64,000 nucleotides of DNA from Patescibacteria group bacterium. GTDB lineage: Bacteria > Patescibacteriota > Patescibacteriia > UBA2591 > UBA6264. The stretch is from assembly GCA_016784145.1 (NCBI GenBank), contig JADHVF010000003.1, positions 22,048-86,047 of the forward strand, given 5' to 3'. The position numbers and the translations under genes are program-made. The notes under the pieces were generated by a model, which was given only the letters and a program-made list of their open reading frames with translations, was not told the DNA's origin and made no database searches. Below, piece after piece: positions 4,335-61,063 of this stretch; the stretch's first letter is position 1, and each line of letters starts with the position of its first letter.

Positions 4335-4523
4335 CCAAGTAGGCCCTACTTAGAGGCCTTTACCTCACTTAGAGGCCTTGCCCCTAAGTAGATATTGAGC
4401 ACGAATCTTACTGAGGGTTTTACTTAGAGGCCTTGCCCCTAAGTAGGGTAGAAATCAATAATCAGTAATCAATAATCAACAACCTCGCTGAGGGTTTTAC
4501 TTAGAGGCCTTGCCCCTAAGTAG
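4335..4523. repeat. cluster A of GC-rich palindromic repeat (core ACTTAGAGGCCTTGCCCCTAAGTAG) with degenerate copies and an ATCAATA heptad tract
   Basis: Exact cores at 4368-4391, 4422-4446 and 4499-4523. Partial copies at 4335-4359 and 4411-4420. Heptads at 4449-4481. Confidence 0.8.
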
Positions 4524-9810: not shown

Positions 9811-10067
9811 TTACCTCACTTAGAGGCCTTGCCCCTAAGTAGGGTACAAATCAATAATCAGTAATCAATAATCAACAACCTCACTGAGGGTTCTACTTAG
9901 AGTTTACTTAGAGGCCTTGCCCCTAAGTAGAGTATAAATCAATAATCAGTAATCAATAATCAACAACCTCACTTAGAGGCCTTGCCCCTAAGTAGAATAA
10001 TCAACAATCTCCCTTAGAGTTTTACTTAGAGGCCTTGCCCCTAAGTAGACTCACTTAGAGGCCTTGA
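9811..10067. repeat. cluster B of the GC-rich palindromic repeat
   Basis: Cores at 9818-9842, 9906-9930, 9971-9995, 10024-10048, truncated copy 10051-10067. Spacings 88/65/53. ATCAATA heptads interleaved. Confidence 0.8.
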
Positions 10068-33431: not shown

Positions 33432-33692
33432 TTATCTTGCTACAGGAGCAGAGACTATTTGCTTTTCTTTTAATGAATTATCTTGGACAATCATTTTTTT
33501 GTCAGTAATAGACAAAACTTGAATTTTATTAATTATTAAACTACCTTTAAATAAATTTTTAATAAAATTACTACTCTTCACTATATAATTCAACAAATCG
33601 CCGTCTTTGTCAAACTCGACATCAATAATTTTTCCTAAATAATTGGCTGATTCTGTGTAAACTGGTAAATTTATAATTTTTTCTAATTTCAT
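33432..33692 (-). CDS. PRC-barrel-like small protein (YlmC/YmxH-like)
   Basis: YLGKIIDVEFDKDGDLLNYIV resembles the PRC-barrel core. Confidence 0.35.
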   Translation of the reverse strand: MKLEKIINLPVYTESANYLGKIIDVEFDKDGDLLNYIVKSSNFIKNLFKGSLIINKIQVLSITDKKMIVQDNSLKEKQIVSAPVAR

Positions 33693-34366
33693 ACATTAGA
33701 ATGTGAAAAAATAATTTTTTGCTCTAAAATACTTACAAAAATTCCTATTAACCAATATAACAACAAGGCACTTGGCATGCTAACACCGATAAAAAGAGTT
33801 ATCATTGGCATCATAAATTTCATTTGCTTATTCATGCTGGCCATCATTGATTCGTCTTTAGCTCCTTTTTTATTAGCTATATTCGTAGGAGGTTGCTTGT
33901 TTGATATCATCTTAGTTTGCCAATATTGAAATATTGCTGTAATTACAGCAATATAAATATTTGGCTCTGCTAGGTTTAAAATACCGAAACTAACTGGATT
34001 TAATGTATCTGGAATAGTTCTAAAAACCTTAAAAACAGCAATCAAAACAGGTAGTTGAATTAGAATTGGTAAACAAGAAGCAAAAGGATTAACTTTGTTT
34101 TCCTTATAAAAATTCATAATTGCCTGAGACTGCTTTTGCTTGTCTTTTGAATGCTTTTGCTTGATTTCTTCTAATTTCGGTTGTATTTCTTTTAAAGATT
34201 TTTGTGCTTTAACTGATTTTATAGAAAGAGGCAAAAGAAATGCCTTAATTATTAATGTCAAAACAATAATTGCTATTCCGAGATCATTCCATGGAGAAAA
34301 ATTATATAGAAACACCAACAACTTAAGCAATGGTTCATAGAGAAGAATATTGAATAGATCAGACAT
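33689..34366 (-). CDS. yidC: membrane protein insertase YidC (short Gram-positive type)
   Basis: Five TM helices. QPKLEEIKQKH...NPFASCLPILIQLPVLIAVF motif. Confidence 0.8.
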   Translation of the reverse strand: MSDLFNILLYEPLLKLLVFLYNFSPWNDLGIAIIVLTLIIKAFLLPLSIKSVKAQKSLKEIQPKLEEIKQKHSKDKQKQSQAIMNFYKENKVNPFASCLPILIQLPVLIAVFKVFRTIPDTLNPVSFGILNLAEPNIYIAVITAIFQYWQTKMISNKQPPTNIANKKGAKDESMMASMNKQMKFMMPMITLFIGVSMPSALLLYWLIGIFVSILEQKIIFSHSNV

Positions 34367-35161: not shown

Positions 35162-36679
35162 TTATCTTGCATATTCTGTGATTCTGTTTTCTCTAATTAC
35201 TGTTACTTTTATTTCTCCTGGATATTTTAACTCCTCTTCTATTCTTTTACTAATTTTTTGAGCCATTTTACCAGCTATTAAATCATCAATTTCTCCTGAC
35301 TTTACAAAAACCCTTAACTCTCTACCTGCTTGAATTGCATAACTTTTTTCAACTCCTGGAAAAACTTTGGCTATTTCTTCTAATTCTTTTAATCTTTTAA
35401 CATACTTTTCATAGCTATCTCTTCTTGCCCCTGGCCTTGAACTTGATATAGCGTCAGCAACCTTAACAATCACCCCCTCTAAAGTTGAAGGGTGGTCATC
35501 ATGGTGCTCCATTGCAGCCGTAATTATTTTTTCCTGTATGTTATATTTTTCTGCTAGATCTTTCCCTAATTCTGTGTGTGTTCCCTGAATCTCAAAGTCA
35601 ATTGCCTTGCCAATATCGTGAATTAATCCTGCCTTTTTAGCAATGGCAACATTTGCTCCTAATTCTATGGCTAGCATTTCTGACAAATTTGCCACCTCAA
35701 TAGAGTGAAGCAAAACATTTTGCCCATAGCTTGTTCTATATTTTAACCTACCAAGAGCTTGAATAATTTTAGCATTAAGTCCGGCCACTCCTGTTTCTTG
35801 AACAGTTGCTTCCCCTGCTTTTTTTATTTCTTTAGCCAACTCTTTTTTTGTTTGAGAAATTACACTTTCAATACGAGCTGGCTGAATTCTCCCGTCTAAA
35901 ATTAATTTTTCAATAGAGAGCTTTGCTAATTGTCTCCTAATTGGATTAAAGGAAGATATAATTATTGCCTCTGGAGTATCGTCAACAATCACCTCCACTC
36001 CTGTAAGTTGTTCTATTACCTTTATGTTTCTTCCTTCTCTTCCTATGATGCGCCCCTTCATCTCGTCAGAAGGCAACAAAACAGTCGAAGATGATCTTTC
36101 TGAGAAATGAGACATATCCATTCGTTCCATTACATCAACCATTAATTGCTTTGTCTGTTTTTCAATTTCTTCTCCTCCTTCTTGTTTTAATTTTTTAATC
36201 CTCAAAAGCAAGTCATCTTTGAACTCTTTTTCTATTGAATCAAATAAAAGATCTTTTGCTTCTTGTTTGTTTAATCCTGAAATTTTTTCTAATTTAGCTT
36301 TTGCTTCTCTGTAAAGCTCTCTGACTTTGTCCTTTGCTCCTTCTATTTTGTTTAAATCAACAGAAATTTTATTTTGTTTTTTGTCTAATTCTAAAATCTT
36401 TTTTTCAAAAAGTTCTCTACGTTGTTCTAATCTATTTTCTAGCACCTTTAGCTCTTCTCTTCTTTTTGTTTCTTCTTTTTTACTTTTTTCAGCAAACTTT
36501 AAGGAATCTTCTCTAGCACTAAAAAATATTTCCTGCTGTTTTACCTTTGCTTTGGTTAAAATATTTTTTGCTCTTGTTTCTGCTGATGATATTGTTTTTT
36601 TACTTATTTGTTTACGTAAAAACCACCCAATTAAAAAGCTAAAAACAATTGCAATTAAAACGAAAATATAATAATTCAT
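35162..36679 (-). CDS. rny: ribonuclease Y
   Basis: N-terminal TM helix, coiled coil, KH domain, HD domain ([13 protein letters not shown]...LIHDIGKA). Confidence 0.85.
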
Positions 36680-36754
36680 ATAATTTTATTTTTTATTAAA
36701 ATTAAAAACCAAGACCTTTAAGTCCGGCTTTTTATTAAAATGTTTTAGCAAAAA

Positions 36755-37330
36755 TTACTTTATAATTTTGTCAATCAATCCATATTTCTTAGCTTGAACA
36801 GCAGACATAAAAAAATCTCTATCAATATCTTTTTGAATTTTGCTTATTTTTTGTCCTGTGTGTTTAGCTAAAATTTTATTAAGATTGTCTCTTATTTTTA
36901 AAATGTGCTCAGCTCTAATCTTAATATCAGATGCTTGTCCTTGTGTTCCACCCATTACTTGGTGTAACATTATTTCTGCATTAGGCAGAGCACAACGCTT
37001 TCCTTTACTTCCTCCTGACAGCAGAACTGCTCCCATAGAAGCTGCAATTCCAATACAAATAGTCATTATTTTTGGTTTAATGTATTGAATTGTATCATAA
37101 ATAGCCATGCCAGCTGTTACTGATCCTCCTGGACTATTAATATAAATTTTGATGTCTTTTTTTTCGTCTTCGCTTTCTAAAAATAAAAGTTGAGCTATTA
37201 TAGTATTCGCCAAACCATCTGTAATTTCATCTCCAAGAAAAATAATTCTTTCTTTCAAAAGCCGGGAATAAATATCATAAGCCCGTTCTCCGGTAGAAGA
37301 CTTTTCTACAACTGTTGGAACGAGATGCAT
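36755..37330 (-). CDS. clpP: ATP-dependent Clp protease proteolytic subunit
   Basis: [18 protein letters not shown], catalytic Ser context GIAASMGA, His/Asp downstream. Confidence 0.85.
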
Positions 37331-37399
37331 ACTTATATTAGTTTAAAGTTTATTTATTATGTTAATATTATAATATTATAAAATACATTAGTCAAGAAC

Positions 37400-37430
37400 A
37401 ATGGCCCTGTTTTCAGGGCCATTATTTTTA
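37400..37430 (-). terminator. terminator hairpin directly after the 314-aa ORF stop
   Basis: AATGGCCCTG-ttttc-AGGGCCATT with flanking T/A runs. Confidence 0.45.
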
Positions 37431-38372
37431 CAACTCTACAATTGGACGGAATGAAACATCTGCTCTATTTAAAACTCTTCTTTGACAATCAATATTAGTT
37501 AATCCGCCATAAACAGAACTCCCACCAAATCCTTGGATGCTTTTATTCCCCTTAAACCTTTCTTCATGCCAGACAAAAGTATCTGTATTTTTGTCTTCCC
37601 TTCTGGGCATATATGAATAAAGTTGGGGGATTATATTTGCTTCAATTACTCTTTCTAAGCGGATTTGATTTTTGGCAATGCCTATTTTTTTTGCCAAACG
37701 AGGCCTAATGGATTCATCAAATTCACGAGCAGAAATACCAAACCTTGACATTTTTGGAACATATTTATCATATGGCGTTATTTCGTTCTTATGTCTTAAC
37801 TTAGAAATAATATACCCTAACAAATTGTCATTTTCATAAATTTGTTTATTTTGTCTTCTGCGATTGGGTTTACACCTGGTATCGATTAAAACAACATTAC
37901 CATTGTTCTCCCCAAGCAGCAAGGCATTTGCTTCTATAAATTCATCAAATGACCTTCTTAGTATCTTTGCTTGTTTATTTTGAGAATAAAACCATTTACT
38001 TGGTTTAATTTTCCATCCTGGTAAATCATTATGGATTGACAAATCAATTGCTGGCAAGAAATGTGGCTCTAGTCCTATTCTTCCCCATTTTACAATTTTT
38101 TTAACTCCATAATATTCAATTGTTTCAGCAAACATATCTAATCTTGGATTTGTGCCAAAAAATTTAAAATGATGTCTTCTTTCTGCTTCAACAATCTCAT
38201 CTACCCATTCAGTGCTTCTTGGCTTGACTGAATGTCCTTCAATTATCAACTGCAAGGCATTAAGCACTTTGTCTGGATTTAGTAAATTTTTACGAAATCG
38301 AAACTGCAGTTCAAATAATTTATTGTAGAATTGGACTTTTTGTTTGTCAGCAACAACCTTTTTAGTCGTCAT
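37428..38372 (-). CDS. hypothetical protein (314 aa), monocistronic, no recognised domain
   Basis: GGAGG SD upstream of ATG. Hairpins on both sides. No Walker, nuclease or nucleotidyltransferase motifs recognised. Confidence 0.4.
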   Translation of the reverse strand: MTTKKVVADKQKVQFYNKLFELQFRFRKNLLNPDKVLNALQLIIEGHSVKPRSTEWVDEIVEAERRHHFKFFGTNPRLDMFAETIEYYGVKKIVKWGRIGLEPHFLPAIDLSIHNDLPGWKIKPSKWFYSQNKQAKILRRSFDEFIEANALLLGENNGNVVLIDTRCKPNRRRQNKQIYENDNLLGYIISKLRHKNEITPYDKYVPKMSRFGISAREFDESIRPRLAKKIGIAKNQIRLERVIEANIIPQLYSYMPRREDKNTDTFVWHEERFKGNKSIQGFGGSSVYGGLTNIDCQRRVLNRADVSFRPIVEL

Positions 38373-38411
38373 AACAAACCTCCTTTTCTTTTTTTTAATG
38401 AGCTAATCATA

Positions 38412-38456
38412 AATAACCATTGGTTATTTATGGCTATAACCCTGTATTATAGCCTC
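38412..38456. promoter_or_regulatory. 23-bp near-perfect palindrome ATAAATAACCA-t-TGGTTATTTAT plus adjacent hairpin GGCTATAA-n8-TTATAGCC, upstream of the 314-aa ORF
   Basis: 11-bp inverted arms with 1-nt spacer read directly from sequence. Confidence 0.4.
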
Positions 38457-38526
38457 TTTAGTATATAAAATCCTGGCAATTTGTCAATATTAAAAAAGGA
38501 GCCCTTTGCTGGACTCCTTTTGATTT

Positions 38527-38754
38527 TTATTTTTTACAAACAGAGCTAGTTAATGTCAATGGATTAACAAATTCTTCAAAAAAAGGAGATGGATGGTCCT
38601 TAATTTCCTGTCTTATCTTTTCCTGCTCTTCTTTTGTCAGTGCTGCTAATTGTCTTAAAACATTATCATTATCTTTTAAAATTTTTCCCTGCTTGTTCTT
38701 TCTTGCTCTCACATTATCCTCCTTGTTTATATTTCTAAGAAAAGTAAACAGCAC
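38527..38754 (-). CDS. hypothetical small protein (75 aa)
   Basis: ORF followed (on minus) by hairpin AAAGGAG.../...CTCCTTTT + T-run at 38470-38525. Confidence 0.3.
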   Translation of the reverse strand: MLFTFLRNINKEDNVRARKNKQGKILKDNDNVLRQLAALTKEEQEKIRQEIKDHPSPFFEEFVNPLTLTSSVCKK

Positions 38755-38786
38755 AATGCTATTTACTTTTTTTAGTTTATCAAAAT

Positions 38787-39299
38787 CTATACTTTTGTCA
38801 ACCTTTTATAAGATTCTATTGCCTGAATAACGTTTTTAAAAGCAAATTTTTTTGGGAGACTGTCAAGATTAACCCATTTTACACTCTTAACATCAGATGC
38901 TGGAATTATATTCCCTTTTGTTATTTTTGATAGATAACAAACATTTAAAGTGTATAAATCTTTGCCAGCAGATAGATATTTATCAATAAAAAATCCTATT
39001 ATTTTATCTAATTTTATTTCTACTCCTAACTCTTCCTTAACTTCTCTCTTAATGCCAGTTTTTGGATGTTCTCCTTCTTCTAAAAAACCGCCCGGCAAAT
39101 CCCAAAAACCCTTATATGGATCAATTCCTCTTTTTGTTAATAAAATTTTATCTTGTTTGACAATAATAGCAGTAACACATGGTCTTGAATTTTGATAAAA
39201 AAATAAATCACACCTATTACAATATTGCCTTGATGCTTTTTCGTGATTTATTTTCTTAACAAGCTTGTTGCCGCACTTTGAACAAAATTTATAAAACAT
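38787..39299 (-). CDS. NUDIX hydrolase with N-terminal C4 zinc ribbon
   Basis: CSKCGN...CNRCD, NUDIX box GGFLEEGEHPKTGIKREVKEELGV. Confidence 0.75.
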   Translation of the reverse strand: MFYKFCSKCGNKLVKKINHEKASRQYCNRCDLFFYQNSRPCVTAIIVKQDKILLTKRGIDPYKGFWDLPGGFLEEGEHPKTGIKREVKEELGVEIKLDKIIGFFIDKYLSAGKDLYTLNVCYLSKITKGNIIPASDVKSVKWVNLDSLPKKFAFKNVIQAIESYKRLTKV

Positions 39300-39388
39300 T
39301 AAAAAAATATTTAGCTTTTATTTCCCTAATTTTCATATAATATCAGTTATTGATTTGAATTTTATAATCTTTTGCCTCCAGACAAAAA

Positions 39389-39473
39389 CGGAGAGGGAGG
39401 GATTCGAACCCTCGATACCTTGCGATATACTGGTTTTCGAAACCAGCGCCTTCAACCACTCAGCCACCTCTCC
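39389..39473 (-). tRNA. tRNA-Ser (CGA), long variable arm
   Basis: Reverse complement GGAGAGGTGGCTGAGTGGTTGAAGGCG-CTGGT-TTCGAAA-ACCAG...GGTTCGAATCCCTC. Confidence 0.8.
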
Positions 39474-39518
39474 TTAATTTTATTTAAATTATATTTTTTC
39501 GTAAAACCTTCTATCTAC

Positions 39519-39900
39519 TTAATTTTCTACTTAGGTCTACTTAGGGGCAAGGCCTCTAAGTAAAACTCTCAGTGAGGTAGTTGATTATTGATTATTGATT
39601 ACTAATTACTGATTATTGATTACTGATTATTGATTTCTATTCTACTTAGGGGCAAGGCCTCTAAGTAAAGACATAAGTCAAGAAAAGCAAGTATTAACAC
39701 CAAAACCTCATCCTGTTCCTCGACCAAAACCTGACTTAGGGGCAAGGCCTCTAAGTGAGGTAGTTGATTATTGATTATTGATTATTGATTTGTACTCTAC
39801 TTAGGGGCAAGACCTCTAAGTGAGGTAGTTGATTATTGATTACTGATTATTGATTACTACTCTACTTAGGGGCAAGACCTCTAAGTGAGAGTAAGTGAGG
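39519..39900. repeat. cluster C of the GC-rich palindromic repeat (opposite orientation: CTACTTAGGGGCAAGGCCTCTAAGT) with TGATTAn heptads
   Basis: Cores at 39537-39561, 39642-39666, 39735-39758, 39797-39821, 39862-39886. Confidence 0.8.
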
Positions 39901-60751: not shown

Positions 60752-61063
60752 AAATGTGCAATATCAAAGATCGCACACTCACAAGTAGTTACTTAGAGGC
60801 CTTGCCCCTAAGTAGATACACTTAGAGATATTACTTAGAGGCCTTGCCCCTAAGTAGATATTGAGCACGAATCAATAATCAATAATCAGTAATCATTCAC
60901 TTAGAGATATTACTTAGAGGCCTTGCCCCTAAGTAGAGTCACTTAGAGATATTACTTAGAGGCCTTGCCCCTAAGTAGAGTCACTTAGAGATATTACTTA
61001 GAGGCCTTGCCCCTAAGTAGATATTGAGCACAAAAAAGTGTGCAATATCAAAGGTTGCACACT
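60752..61063. repeat. cluster D: five palindromic-repeat cores in a 42-bp tandem unit, bounded by two copies of a second hairpin element (AGTGTGCAA-n9-TTGCACACT)
   Basis: Cores 60791-60815, 60833-60857, 60922-60946, 60954-60978, 60996-61020. Bounding hairpins 60752-60778 and 61037-61063. Confidence 0.8.

What the first reader, a model, noticed from the sequence alone, without database searches (positions are those of the whole stretch)
37428..38460. Orphan 314-aa protein with its own palindromic operator and flanking hairpins
A monocistronic minus-strand gene with GGAGG SD and no motif I can assign. It contains no P-loop, HD, GGDEF or nuclease signatures. It is insulated by hairpins on both sides. 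A 23-bp near-perfect palindrome ATAAATAACCA-t-TGGTTATTTAT (38412-38434) and an adjacent hairpin GGCTATAA-n8-TTATAGCC sit immediately upstream in its promoter region, suggesting dedicated dimeric-repressor control. It is the best candidate in the window for an uncharacterised function.
Basis: partly seen in the sequence, partly recalled or inferred. Interest (0 to 1): 0.5.

Follow-up and report, generated by a model that had tools for sequence, protein, structure and literature searches.

The report
Stand-alone relative of DGR-diversified lectin-fold proteins
The "orphan" gene encodes a lectin-like binding protein from a family that, in related tiny bacteria, is rewritten by a retroelement that mutates one gene on purpose; this copy has no such retroelement within about 81 kb and its variable tip looks frozen, so it is an unannotated but recognisable kind of gene.

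Summary
The 314-aa minus-strand ORF (37428-38372), its GGAGG ribosome-binding site, the perfect palindrome and both flanking hairpins are real. The protein matches no Pfam, NCBIfam, PHROG, PADLOC or PDB sequence, but it is not an orphan: 489 cluster representatives exist, mostly in Patescibacteria. A confident AlphaFold model (pLDDT 89.8) has the formylglycine-generating-enzyme/C-type-lectin fold shared with the DGR variable proteins TvpA, TaqVP and Mtd. In 8 of 28 related genomic loci the gene's last ~120 bp is repeated about 330-360 bp downstream, and 118 of 139 mismatches fall at adenines of the downstream copy. A bAvd gene and a reverse transcriptase follow in the three loci examined. So the family is a set of DGR variable proteins. 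The window copy has no template repeat, RT or Avd in about 81 kb. Its protein is identical on 13 contigs from several projects. Its variable-region codons obey the DGR rule at only 7 of 10 positions, the lowest in the set, and a Trp codon present in all eight templates is lost. Best reading: a fixed, cytoplasmic ligand-binding descendant of a DGR target. The palindrome lies downstream of the -10 box, is unique in the window and is not conserved in relatives, so a dedicated operator is possible but unsupported.

The parts
37428..38372 (-). CDS of the 314-aa protein (NCBI MBL7054063.1, 'hypothetical protein ISS06_02610'). It has an N-terminal helical region (about residues 9-98), then an FGE/C-type-lectin-like alpha/beta domain running to the C-terminus.
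37431..37562 (-). Segment homologous to the DGR variable region (VR), codons 271-314 (EERFKGNKSIQGFGGSSVYGGLTNIDCQRRVLNRADVSFRPIVEL). Here it looks frozen and partly decayed.
   Evidence: columns covered by the TRs of 8 relatives; window 7 of 10 NNY; the TR-invariant Trp is replaced; no TR in the window; identical in all sampled contigs
37394..37429 (-). Hairpin just after the stop codon. The perfect core is 37400-37423: a 10-bp stem with 6 G-C pairs and a 4-nt loop, AAAA on the sense strand. It is a probable transcription terminator and sits where DGR targets carry their post-VR hairpin/cruciform.
   Evidence: compared with PMC3240598 and with relatives
38379..38384 (-). Shine-Dalgarno sequence AGGAGG, 6 nt before the ATG
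   Evidence: read directly
38408..38432 (.). Perfect 12+1+12 palindrome CATAAATAACCA-T-TGGTTATTTATG, at about +22 to +46 of the predicted transcript. It is either the second 5'-leader stem-loop or an operator.
38432..38454 (-). 8-bp stem hairpin GGCTATAA-7 nt-TTATAGCC, starting at about the predicted +1. It contains a second TATAAT hexamer at 38446-38451.
   Evidence: hexamer read
38460..38487 (-). Sigma-70-like promoter: TTGACA (38487-38482), 16 nt, TATACT (38465-38460)
   Evidence: 11 of 12 matches
38494..38521 (-). Terminator-like hairpin of the upstream 75-aa ORF. It isolates the target's promoter from read-through.
37367..37395 (-). Promoter-like site of the downstream clpP gene (TTGACT-17 nt-TATAAT). 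It supports the target being monocistronic.

Best explanation
The gene encodes a soluble, probably cytoplasmic ligand-binding protein built on the formylglycine-generating-enzyme/C-type-lectin (CLec) fold. Its family is the variable (target) protein of Patescibacteria-type diversity-generating retroelements (DGRs). In those elements an Avd/reverse-transcriptase pair copies a template repeat (TR) with errors at adenines and writes it over the last ~120 bp of the gene, reshaping the binding surface. In this genome the copy stands alone: no TR, Avd or RT lies within about 81 kb. Its C-terminal surface is no longer being rewritten and has begun to drift by ordinary substitution. It is expressed as a single-gene unit from its own strong promoter, with two stem-loops at the 5' end of the mRNA and a hairpin after the stop codon. 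Shown: fold, family membership, DGR linkage of relatives, absence of the cassette here, invariance between samples. Inferred: that it binds a fixed, still unknown ligand; that it is cytoplasmic; that the copy descends from a diversified ancestor; and the roles of the leader structures.
Against: The rest of the genome could not be searched. The source contig is up to 108 kb, and non-adjacent DGR targets are documented (PMC5758913). Most unlinked relatives keep a 10 of 10 NNY footprint, so remote targeting may be common in this family. The sampled populations are nearly clonal (3 SNPs in 3.4 kb over 9 contigs), and consensus assemblies hide minority VR variants, so invariance is only moderate evidence. 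The 7 of 10 NNY count is not significantly different from the 0.46 background (about P = 0.11, my binomial estimate), and this genome's own TR, if there is one, could use other codons. No ligand or function is shown. The many invariant charged residues outside the VR could mean a conserved partner or a catalytic site that I could not identify.
Confidence: 0.7

Rival explanations
1. The gene is an active but remote DGR target. A cassette (TR, Avd, RT) elsewhere in the genome, more than about 34-46 kb away, still rewrites 37431-37562, and the hairpin after the stop codon is its target-recognition cruciform.
For: Non-adjacent and remote targets are documented (PMC5758913; PMC8144416). Unlinked relatives mostly show 10 of 10 NNY codons. 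The window hairpin has a 10-bp G+C-containing stem and a 4-nt loop and starts 5 nt after the stop, within the 7-10 bp, 4-nt, 4-34 bp ranges reported for DGR targets (PMC3240598). The first eight variable-type codons of the window VR are all NNY.
Against: The VR is identical on 13 contigs from several projects and the 90% cluster has a single member, whereas a linked relative's cluster varies almost only in its VR. Three of 10 templated columns carry codons (CAA, TTA, GCA) that adenine mutagenesis of AAY cannot produce, and the template-invariant Trp is lost. The hairpin loop is AAAA, not the GRNA consensus. [quoted passage not shown]
Confidence: 0.17
2. One reading: a gene of unknown function under dedicated control by a dimeric repressor that binds the 25-bp palindrome as an operator just downstream of the promoter.
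For: The 12+1+12 palindrome is perfect and far beyond chance. It has a 1-nt centre and lacks the A-run/T-run flanks of the window's terminator-like repeats. It lies within about 50 nt of the predicted start site, where a bound protein could block RNA polymerase.
Against: There is no second copy or good half-site match in 64 kb. Relatives have no comparable element upstream. No regulator gene was identified next to the gene. Together with the adjacent hairpin it folds into two stem-loops at the 5' end of the mRNA (-19.6 kcal/mol, z = -3.0), which would equally fit an mRNA-stabilising or translation-modulating leader. No Rfam family matches.
Confidence: 0.3
3. The protein is an enzyme of the FGE/EgtB/PvdO superfamily (an oxidative modifier of a protein or small molecule), not a binding module.
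For: The best structural neighbours include FGE, EgtB, OvoA, SenA and PvdO. About 50 positions are at least 90% conserved, many of them charged: E102, H104, D164, R166, K168, R210, E240, E244.
Against: Pfam FGE-sulfatase is not detected even at E <= 1, and the family profile finds no PDB relative. The copper-binding Cys pair of FGE is absent: the window protein has only C167 and C296, and no Cys is among the conserved columns. There is no DinB-like iron domain as in EgtB. The family's C-terminal segment is the substrate of DGR mutagenesis, which is the hallmark of a binding surface.
Confidence: 0.05

Closest known systems
TvpA (Treponema denticola variable protein 1, PDB 2y3c), TaqVP (5vf4) and Mtd (1yu0): structurally characterised DGR variable proteins
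   Different: There is no detectable sequence similarity. The window copy lacks TR, Avd and RT within about 81 kb and shows no VR variation. It has no signal peptide or lipobox-like N-terminus, whereas, from my own knowledge, TvpA is a lipoprotein and Mtd a phage tail-fibre tip.
CPR/Patescibacteria DGR target genes with unclassified variable regions (UVR1-6; category g1 P-loop NTPase targets) of Wu et al. 2018, and DGR clade 2 of Roux et al. 2021
   Same: Same host group. The cassette has avd, TR and RT next to a single target. The targets have no Pfam domain, and some are fused to an AAA/Midasin-type ATPase (PMC5758913), matching the AAA_5 fusions found here.
   Different: I could not check whether this family equals one of UVR1-6, because the supplementary alignments are not held. 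Wu et al. left the fold of those VRs open; here the fold is assigned to CLec from a confident model. The window gene is not part of a cassette.
Formylglycine-generating enzyme family (Pfam FGE-sulfatase, PF03781), PvdO, CarF, and the EgtB/OvoA C-terminal domains
   Different: The Pfam model does not match, and there is no catalytic Cys pair or iron-binding domain. The family has its own conserved motifs (EPHFLP, DTRxKP, NDNLLG, SRFG) and an N-terminal helical region.

Membership tests
DGR variable (target) protein | C-type-lectin/FGE-like (or Ig) fold carrying the variable region, usually at the C-terminus | tested here: met
DGR variable (target) protein | A cognate template repeat whose differences from the VR are almost all at TR adenines | tested here: not met
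   Met for 8 relatives (118 of 139 mismatches at TR adenines). For the window gene no TR was found in 64 kb or in 17 kb of extra flank. The one weak hit has 8 of 16 mismatches at A and lies inside a coding gene. The rest of the genome was not searchable.
DGR variable (target) protein | DGR-type reverse transcriptase and an accessory protein (Avd) in the same genome, usually adjacent | tested here: not met
   Relatives L013, L014 and L023 have RVT_1 and bAvd ORFs. tblastn of these against the window and its flanks gives nothing below E 0.1-0.2, and the window has no RT-motif ORF. The absence is shown for about 81 kb only.
DGR variable (target) protein | Codons at AAY-templated positions restricted to NNY (the footprint of adenine mutagenesis) | tested here: inconclusive
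   Window 7 of 10 (CAA, TTA and GCA break the rule), against 79 of 80 in linked loci and a 0.46 background
DGR variable (target) protein | Hypervariability between individuals or samples confined to the VR | tested here: not met
   Identical protein on 13 contigs; 0 differences in the gene over 9 contigs; cluster of one sequence. Positive control: the P0052 cluster has 15 of 16 variable sites in its VR. Only consensus assemblies were tested, not reads.
DGR variable (target) protein | G+C-rich inverted repeat (7-10 bp stem, 4-nt GRNA loop) 4-34 bp downstream of the VR (Guo et al. 2011) | tested here: inconclusive
   The 10-bp stem (6 G-C pairs), 4-nt loop and 5-nt distance from the stop all fit, but the loop is AAAA. 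The same hairpin can serve as a terminator.
Formylglycine-generating enzyme (Pfam FGE-sulfatase) | Match to PF03781 and a conserved copper-binding Cys pair | tested here: not met
   No Pfam hit at E <= 1; only C167 and C296, neither conserved
Repressor-operator controlled gene | Dyad-symmetric site overlapping or just downstream of the promoter | tested here: met
   Perfect 12+1+12 palindrome at 38408-38432, 28 nt downstream of the -10 box
Repressor-operator controlled gene | A cognate DNA-binding regulator, and recurrence or conservation of the site | tested here: not met
   No other copy in the window; no comparable element upstream of 28 relatives; no regulator identified next to the gene. 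Binding itself cannot be tested with these tools.
Intrinsic (factor-independent) terminator, for the hairpin at 37400-37423 | G+C-rich stem-loop followed by a U-tract on the transcribed strand | tested here: inconclusive
   The stem is strong (-22.3 kcal/mol, z = -5.1). The scan scored the T-tract on the + strand only. On the gene's strand the tail is GUUCUUGACU.

The most novel reading that the evidence does not exclude
The gene is a 'retired' DGR receptor. On this reading a Patescibacteria lineage used a DGR to evolve a cytoplasmic lectin-fold sensor, fixed one specificity, lost or moved the retroelement, and placed the frozen gene under its own lineage-specific control (the palindrome and leader hairpins) among housekeeping genes. 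Together with the frozen VRs in Poribacteria and in the P0034/P0037 clusters, this would show that DGR targets are repeatedly domesticated into ordinary, purifying-selected genes. It would also mean that this unannotated family (including the AAA_5, kinase and HAD fusions) forms a widespread class of intracellular, DGR-programmable sensors.
Probability: 0.3. Interest if true: 0.55.

Novelty: new member of a known kind. Interest (0 to 1): 0.42.

Why it matters
This turns a "hypothetical protein" in a reduced Patescibacteria genome into a testable object: a C-type-lectin-fold binding module from a family that diversity-generating retroelements reprogram. It assigns a fold to a Pfam-less family of at least 489 clusters. 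That family may correspond to one of the unclassified CPR target classes in the literature. The family holds actively diversifying, remotely linked and frozen members side by side, so it is usable material for asking what happens to a hypervariable receptor once its mutator is gone. The lack of a signal peptide and the fusions to ATPase, kinase and phosphatase domains point to intracellular sensing rather than the surface-display role usually assumed. For the window itself the result is modest: one stand-alone, apparently fixed copy with unknown ligand.

Tried and rejected
1. Sequence-level annotation found nothing. Pfam, NCBIfam, PHROGs, PADLOC and PDB phmmer all failed, and the family profile against PDB gave only a MarR hit at E 0.09, which I take to be spurious.

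2. Rfam on 36500-39600 at E <= 10 gave no family for the leader or the hairpins, only tRNA-Ser and sub-threshold noise.

3. My search for a remote TR in metagenome contigs failed through my own design error. The pattern allowed each VR base or A, so poly-A runs matched.

4. A weak 53-nt similarity (70%, E 0.001) between the VR and the CCA-adding enzyme gene beyond the window was rejected as chance. Only 8 of 16 mismatches are at A, and it lies in-frame inside a housekeeping gene.

5. Conserved gene neighbourhood: none. The contexts of P0065, P0038 and P0030 are unrelated.

6. The afdb50 fold library was unavailable, and the viral BFVD search gave no significant or informative hit.

7. The supplementary VR alignments of Wu et al. 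2018 are not held, so the family could not be matched to UVR1-6.

Full report
**1. The observation**

The minus-strand ORF 37428-38372 encodes 314 aa. AGGAGG lies 6 nt before the ATG, at 38379-38384.

The palindrome is perfect and slightly larger than reported: CATAAATAACCA-T-TGGTTATTTATG at 38408-38432. The adjacent hairpin GGCTATAA/TTATAGCC has 7, not 8, intervening bases and spans 38432-38454.

A strong hairpin (10-bp stem, 4-nt loop) lies at 37400-37423, its stem starting 5 nt after the stop codon. It folds at -22.3 kcal/mol, z = -5.1. The upstream 75-aa ORF ends in its own terminator-like hairpin at 38494-38521. clpP downstream has its own promoter-like site at 37395-37367. The gene is therefore plausibly monocistronic.

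The palindrome is beyond chance. The window has five perfect inverted repeats with arms of 12 or more, against 0.17 expected, and the 23-mer has 0.01 expected matches.

One correction matters. The best promoter match (TTGACA-16 nt-TATACT, 38487-38460, 11 of 12) puts both elements downstream of the -10 box. They would then form two adjacent stem-loops at the very 5' end of the mRNA (-19.6 kcal/mol, z = -3.0).

**2. The protein is not an orphan**

No Pfam, NCBIfam, PHROG, PADLOC or PDB sequence match exists. The word-indexed search found 66 homologs, and every source name that gives a taxon says Patescibacteria; none has a Pfam domain. The exhaustive profile search found 489 cluster representatives, 153 of them below 1e-30.

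The alignment shows strongly conserved motifs: EPHFLP 102-107, DTRxKP 164-169, NDNLLG 181-186, SRFG 209-212, RLExxxExN 238-246, WxEE 268-271 and R309. The C-terminal stretch GGxSxxGGLxxVxxxxxxxxWxxxSxRP is notably variable.

Some relatives are fusions. An N-terminal AAA_5 ATPase is followed by one or two copies of the domain, and there are also Ser/Thr kinase and HAD phosphatase fusions. The gene neighbourhood is not conserved.

**3. Fold**

An AlphaFold2 model built on the 66-sequence alignment is confident: mean pLDDT 89.8, pTM 0.81.

The FGE catalytic features are absent. PF03781 does not match, and there is no conserved Cys.

**4. The family is a DGR target family**

I fetched 28 related genomic loci: mostly Patescibacteria, plus Poribacteria and two Gammaproteobacteria MAGs.

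- In eight of them the last 118-132 bp of the gene recur about 320-360 bp downstream of the VR at 82-92% identity.
- Of 139 mismatches, 118 (85%) lie at adenines of the downstream copy. This is the defining signature of a TR/VR pair.
- In L013, L014 and L023 the order is target, TR, a bAvd gene (PF22296) on the opposite strand, then an RVT_1 reverse transcriptase with a YxRYCDDF motif.
- As a population-level control, the 90% cluster of the L014 protein (P0052) has 15 of its 16 variable positions within the last 45 residues.

DGR-linked members are scattered over the family tree.

Patescibacteria DGRs and their mostly unannotated targets are already known. They include VR classes of unknown fold and P-loop/Midasin-AAA fusions (PMC5758913; PMC8144416). 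I could not verify whether this family equals one of those classes.

**5. The window copy**

No sequence in the 64-kb window resembles the gene's 3' end. This holds for relaxed blastn and for an adenine-permissive pattern at 30-nt granularity. No RT-motif ORF is present, and no tblastn hit to the relatives' RT or Avd, or to a second family member, was found.

Looking up proteins near the window's edges added 9.3 kb and 8 kb of flank. Both contain only housekeeping genes and again no TR, RT or Avd. One weak hit was rejected.

The exact protein occurs on 13 contigs from several sequencing projects. Over 3.4 kb, nine contigs differ at only three positions, all outside the gene. Its 90% cluster has one member.

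At the ten alignment columns where at least four of eight TRs carry AAY:
- Linked loci have NNY codons in 79 of 80 cases.
- Most unlinked relatives have 10 of 10, against a background of about 0.5.
- The window gene has 7 of 10, the lowest in the set. CAA, TTA and GCA cannot arise from adenine mutagenesis of AAY.
- The Trp codon that is TGG in all eight TRs is AGA in the window.

The 5' half of the window's VR (ATC TTT AGT GTT TAT AAT GAT TGT) still looks DGR-derived, while the 3' half has drifted.

Frozen members exist elsewhere. Five Poribacteria species share virtually the same VR. The P0034 and P0037 clusters vary throughout the protein but hardly at all in the VR.

**6. Mechanism proposed**

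The protein is a soluble binding module. It has no hydrophobic segment (maximum 19-residue Kyte-Doolittle mean 0.9) and a hydrophilic N-terminus. Its ligand-contacting surface is formed by the C-terminal segment that DGRs rewrite in relatives. The cytoplasmic location is an inference, supported by the fusions to ATPase, kinase and phosphatase domains.

In this genome the surface is fixed. The gene is best seen as a stand-alone, probably formerly diversified family member kept for one specificity. The ligand is unknown.

The hairpin after the stop codon fits the stem length, loop size and distance of the DGR target hairpin/cruciform of Guo et al. (7-10 bp stem, 4-nt loop, 4-34 bp from the VR), but its AAAA loop does not fit their GRNA consensus. 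Strong inverted repeats follow the stop codon in seven of the eight linked loci and in many unlinked relatives. It may be a relic of that element, a terminator, or both.

**7. The palindrome**

It is unique in the window and absent upstream of relatives. It matches no Rfam family. It could be an operator acting as a roadblock just downstream of the start site, or, together with the +1 hairpin, a 5' mRNA stabiliser or translation modulator. Neither reading can be decided here. I put the operator reading at about 0.3.

**8. Rivals and limits**

The main rival is an active remote DGR target. Non-adjacent targets are documented, unlinked relatives keep the codon footprint, and I could not search the rest of the genome. 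My one metagenome scan was wasted on poly-A matches through a pattern-design error. The invariance evidence rests on consensus assemblies of nearly clonal populations. An enzymatic role is unlikely but not excluded, given the many conserved charged residues.

**9. Verdict**

The gene is a new, stand-alone member of a known kind, a CLec-fold DGR variable-protein family of Patescibacteria. Interest is moderate.

Noticed in passing
window 4367-4523 (+), 9818-10048 (+), 39537-39886 (-), 60791-61020 (+): A 25-nt element, ACTTAGAGGCCTTGCCCCTAAGTAG, with an internal inverted repeat (CTTAG...CTAAG), occurs 17 times (0 expected) in four clusters with irregular 42-105 nt spacing. At least three of the four clusters lie next to tRNA genes. 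One cluster lies about 1.1 kb from the target gene. The spacing is too irregular for a CRISPR array; it may be a REP/MITE-like repeat family of this genome.
   Followed up: partly
window 33931-33954: A perfect 24-bp palindrome with no spacer, ATATTGCTGTAATTACAGCAATAT, lies inside the yidC-like ORF (33689-34366, -). It is one of only five perfect inverted repeats with arms of 12 or more in the window.
   Followed up: no
L009 (+48 after stop), L012 (+39), L033 (+43), L022 (+16): Downstream of the variable region, several relatives from different genomes carry long palindromes with a shared core, CTTGGAAA...TTTCCAAG. CTTGG-type repeats also follow the stop codon in L024, L026 and L027. This may be a conserved DNA element of this DGR lineage's target sites.
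   Followed up: no
L017 5021-5950 and downstream: The target's C-terminus reads like an unmutated template (RLNGGNSDNGG..., Asn at the variable positions). An RT-like ORF follows almost directly, and no separate TR or Avd was found. This may be an assembly collapse of VR onto TR, or a freshly copied VR.
   Followed up: partly
P0117, P0123 (two tandem copies); P0115, P0136, P0146, P0147, P0157, P0168 (AAA_5); P0194 (Pkinase); P0134 (HAD): Long relatives fuse the domain, sometimes twice in tandem, to an AAA_5 (MoxR/McrB/Midasin-type) ATPase, a Ser/Thr kinase or a HAD phosphatase. This suggests intracellular sensor architectures. Whether these fusions are DGR-linked was not examined.
   Followed up: partly
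L018-L021, L025 (Poribacteria); protein clusters of P0034 and P0037: Family members whose VR-equivalent segment is virtually identical across species or strains while the rest of the protein varies. These are apparently frozen former DGR targets outside Patescibacteria as well.
   Followed up: partly
window 38446-38451 (-): A perfect TATAAT hexamer lies inside the first leader hairpin, 8 nt downstream of the predicted -10 box (TATACT). Its -35 partner is poor (AGGATT). An alternative start site inside the hairpin cannot be excluded.
   Followed up: no
window 38527-38754 (-): A 75-aa ORF (61 aa in some gene calls) with no Pfam hit on record lies directly upstream of the target's promoter and ends in its own terminator. 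I did not scan it; it is the only unannotated neighbour that could be tested as a candidate regulator.
   Followed up: no
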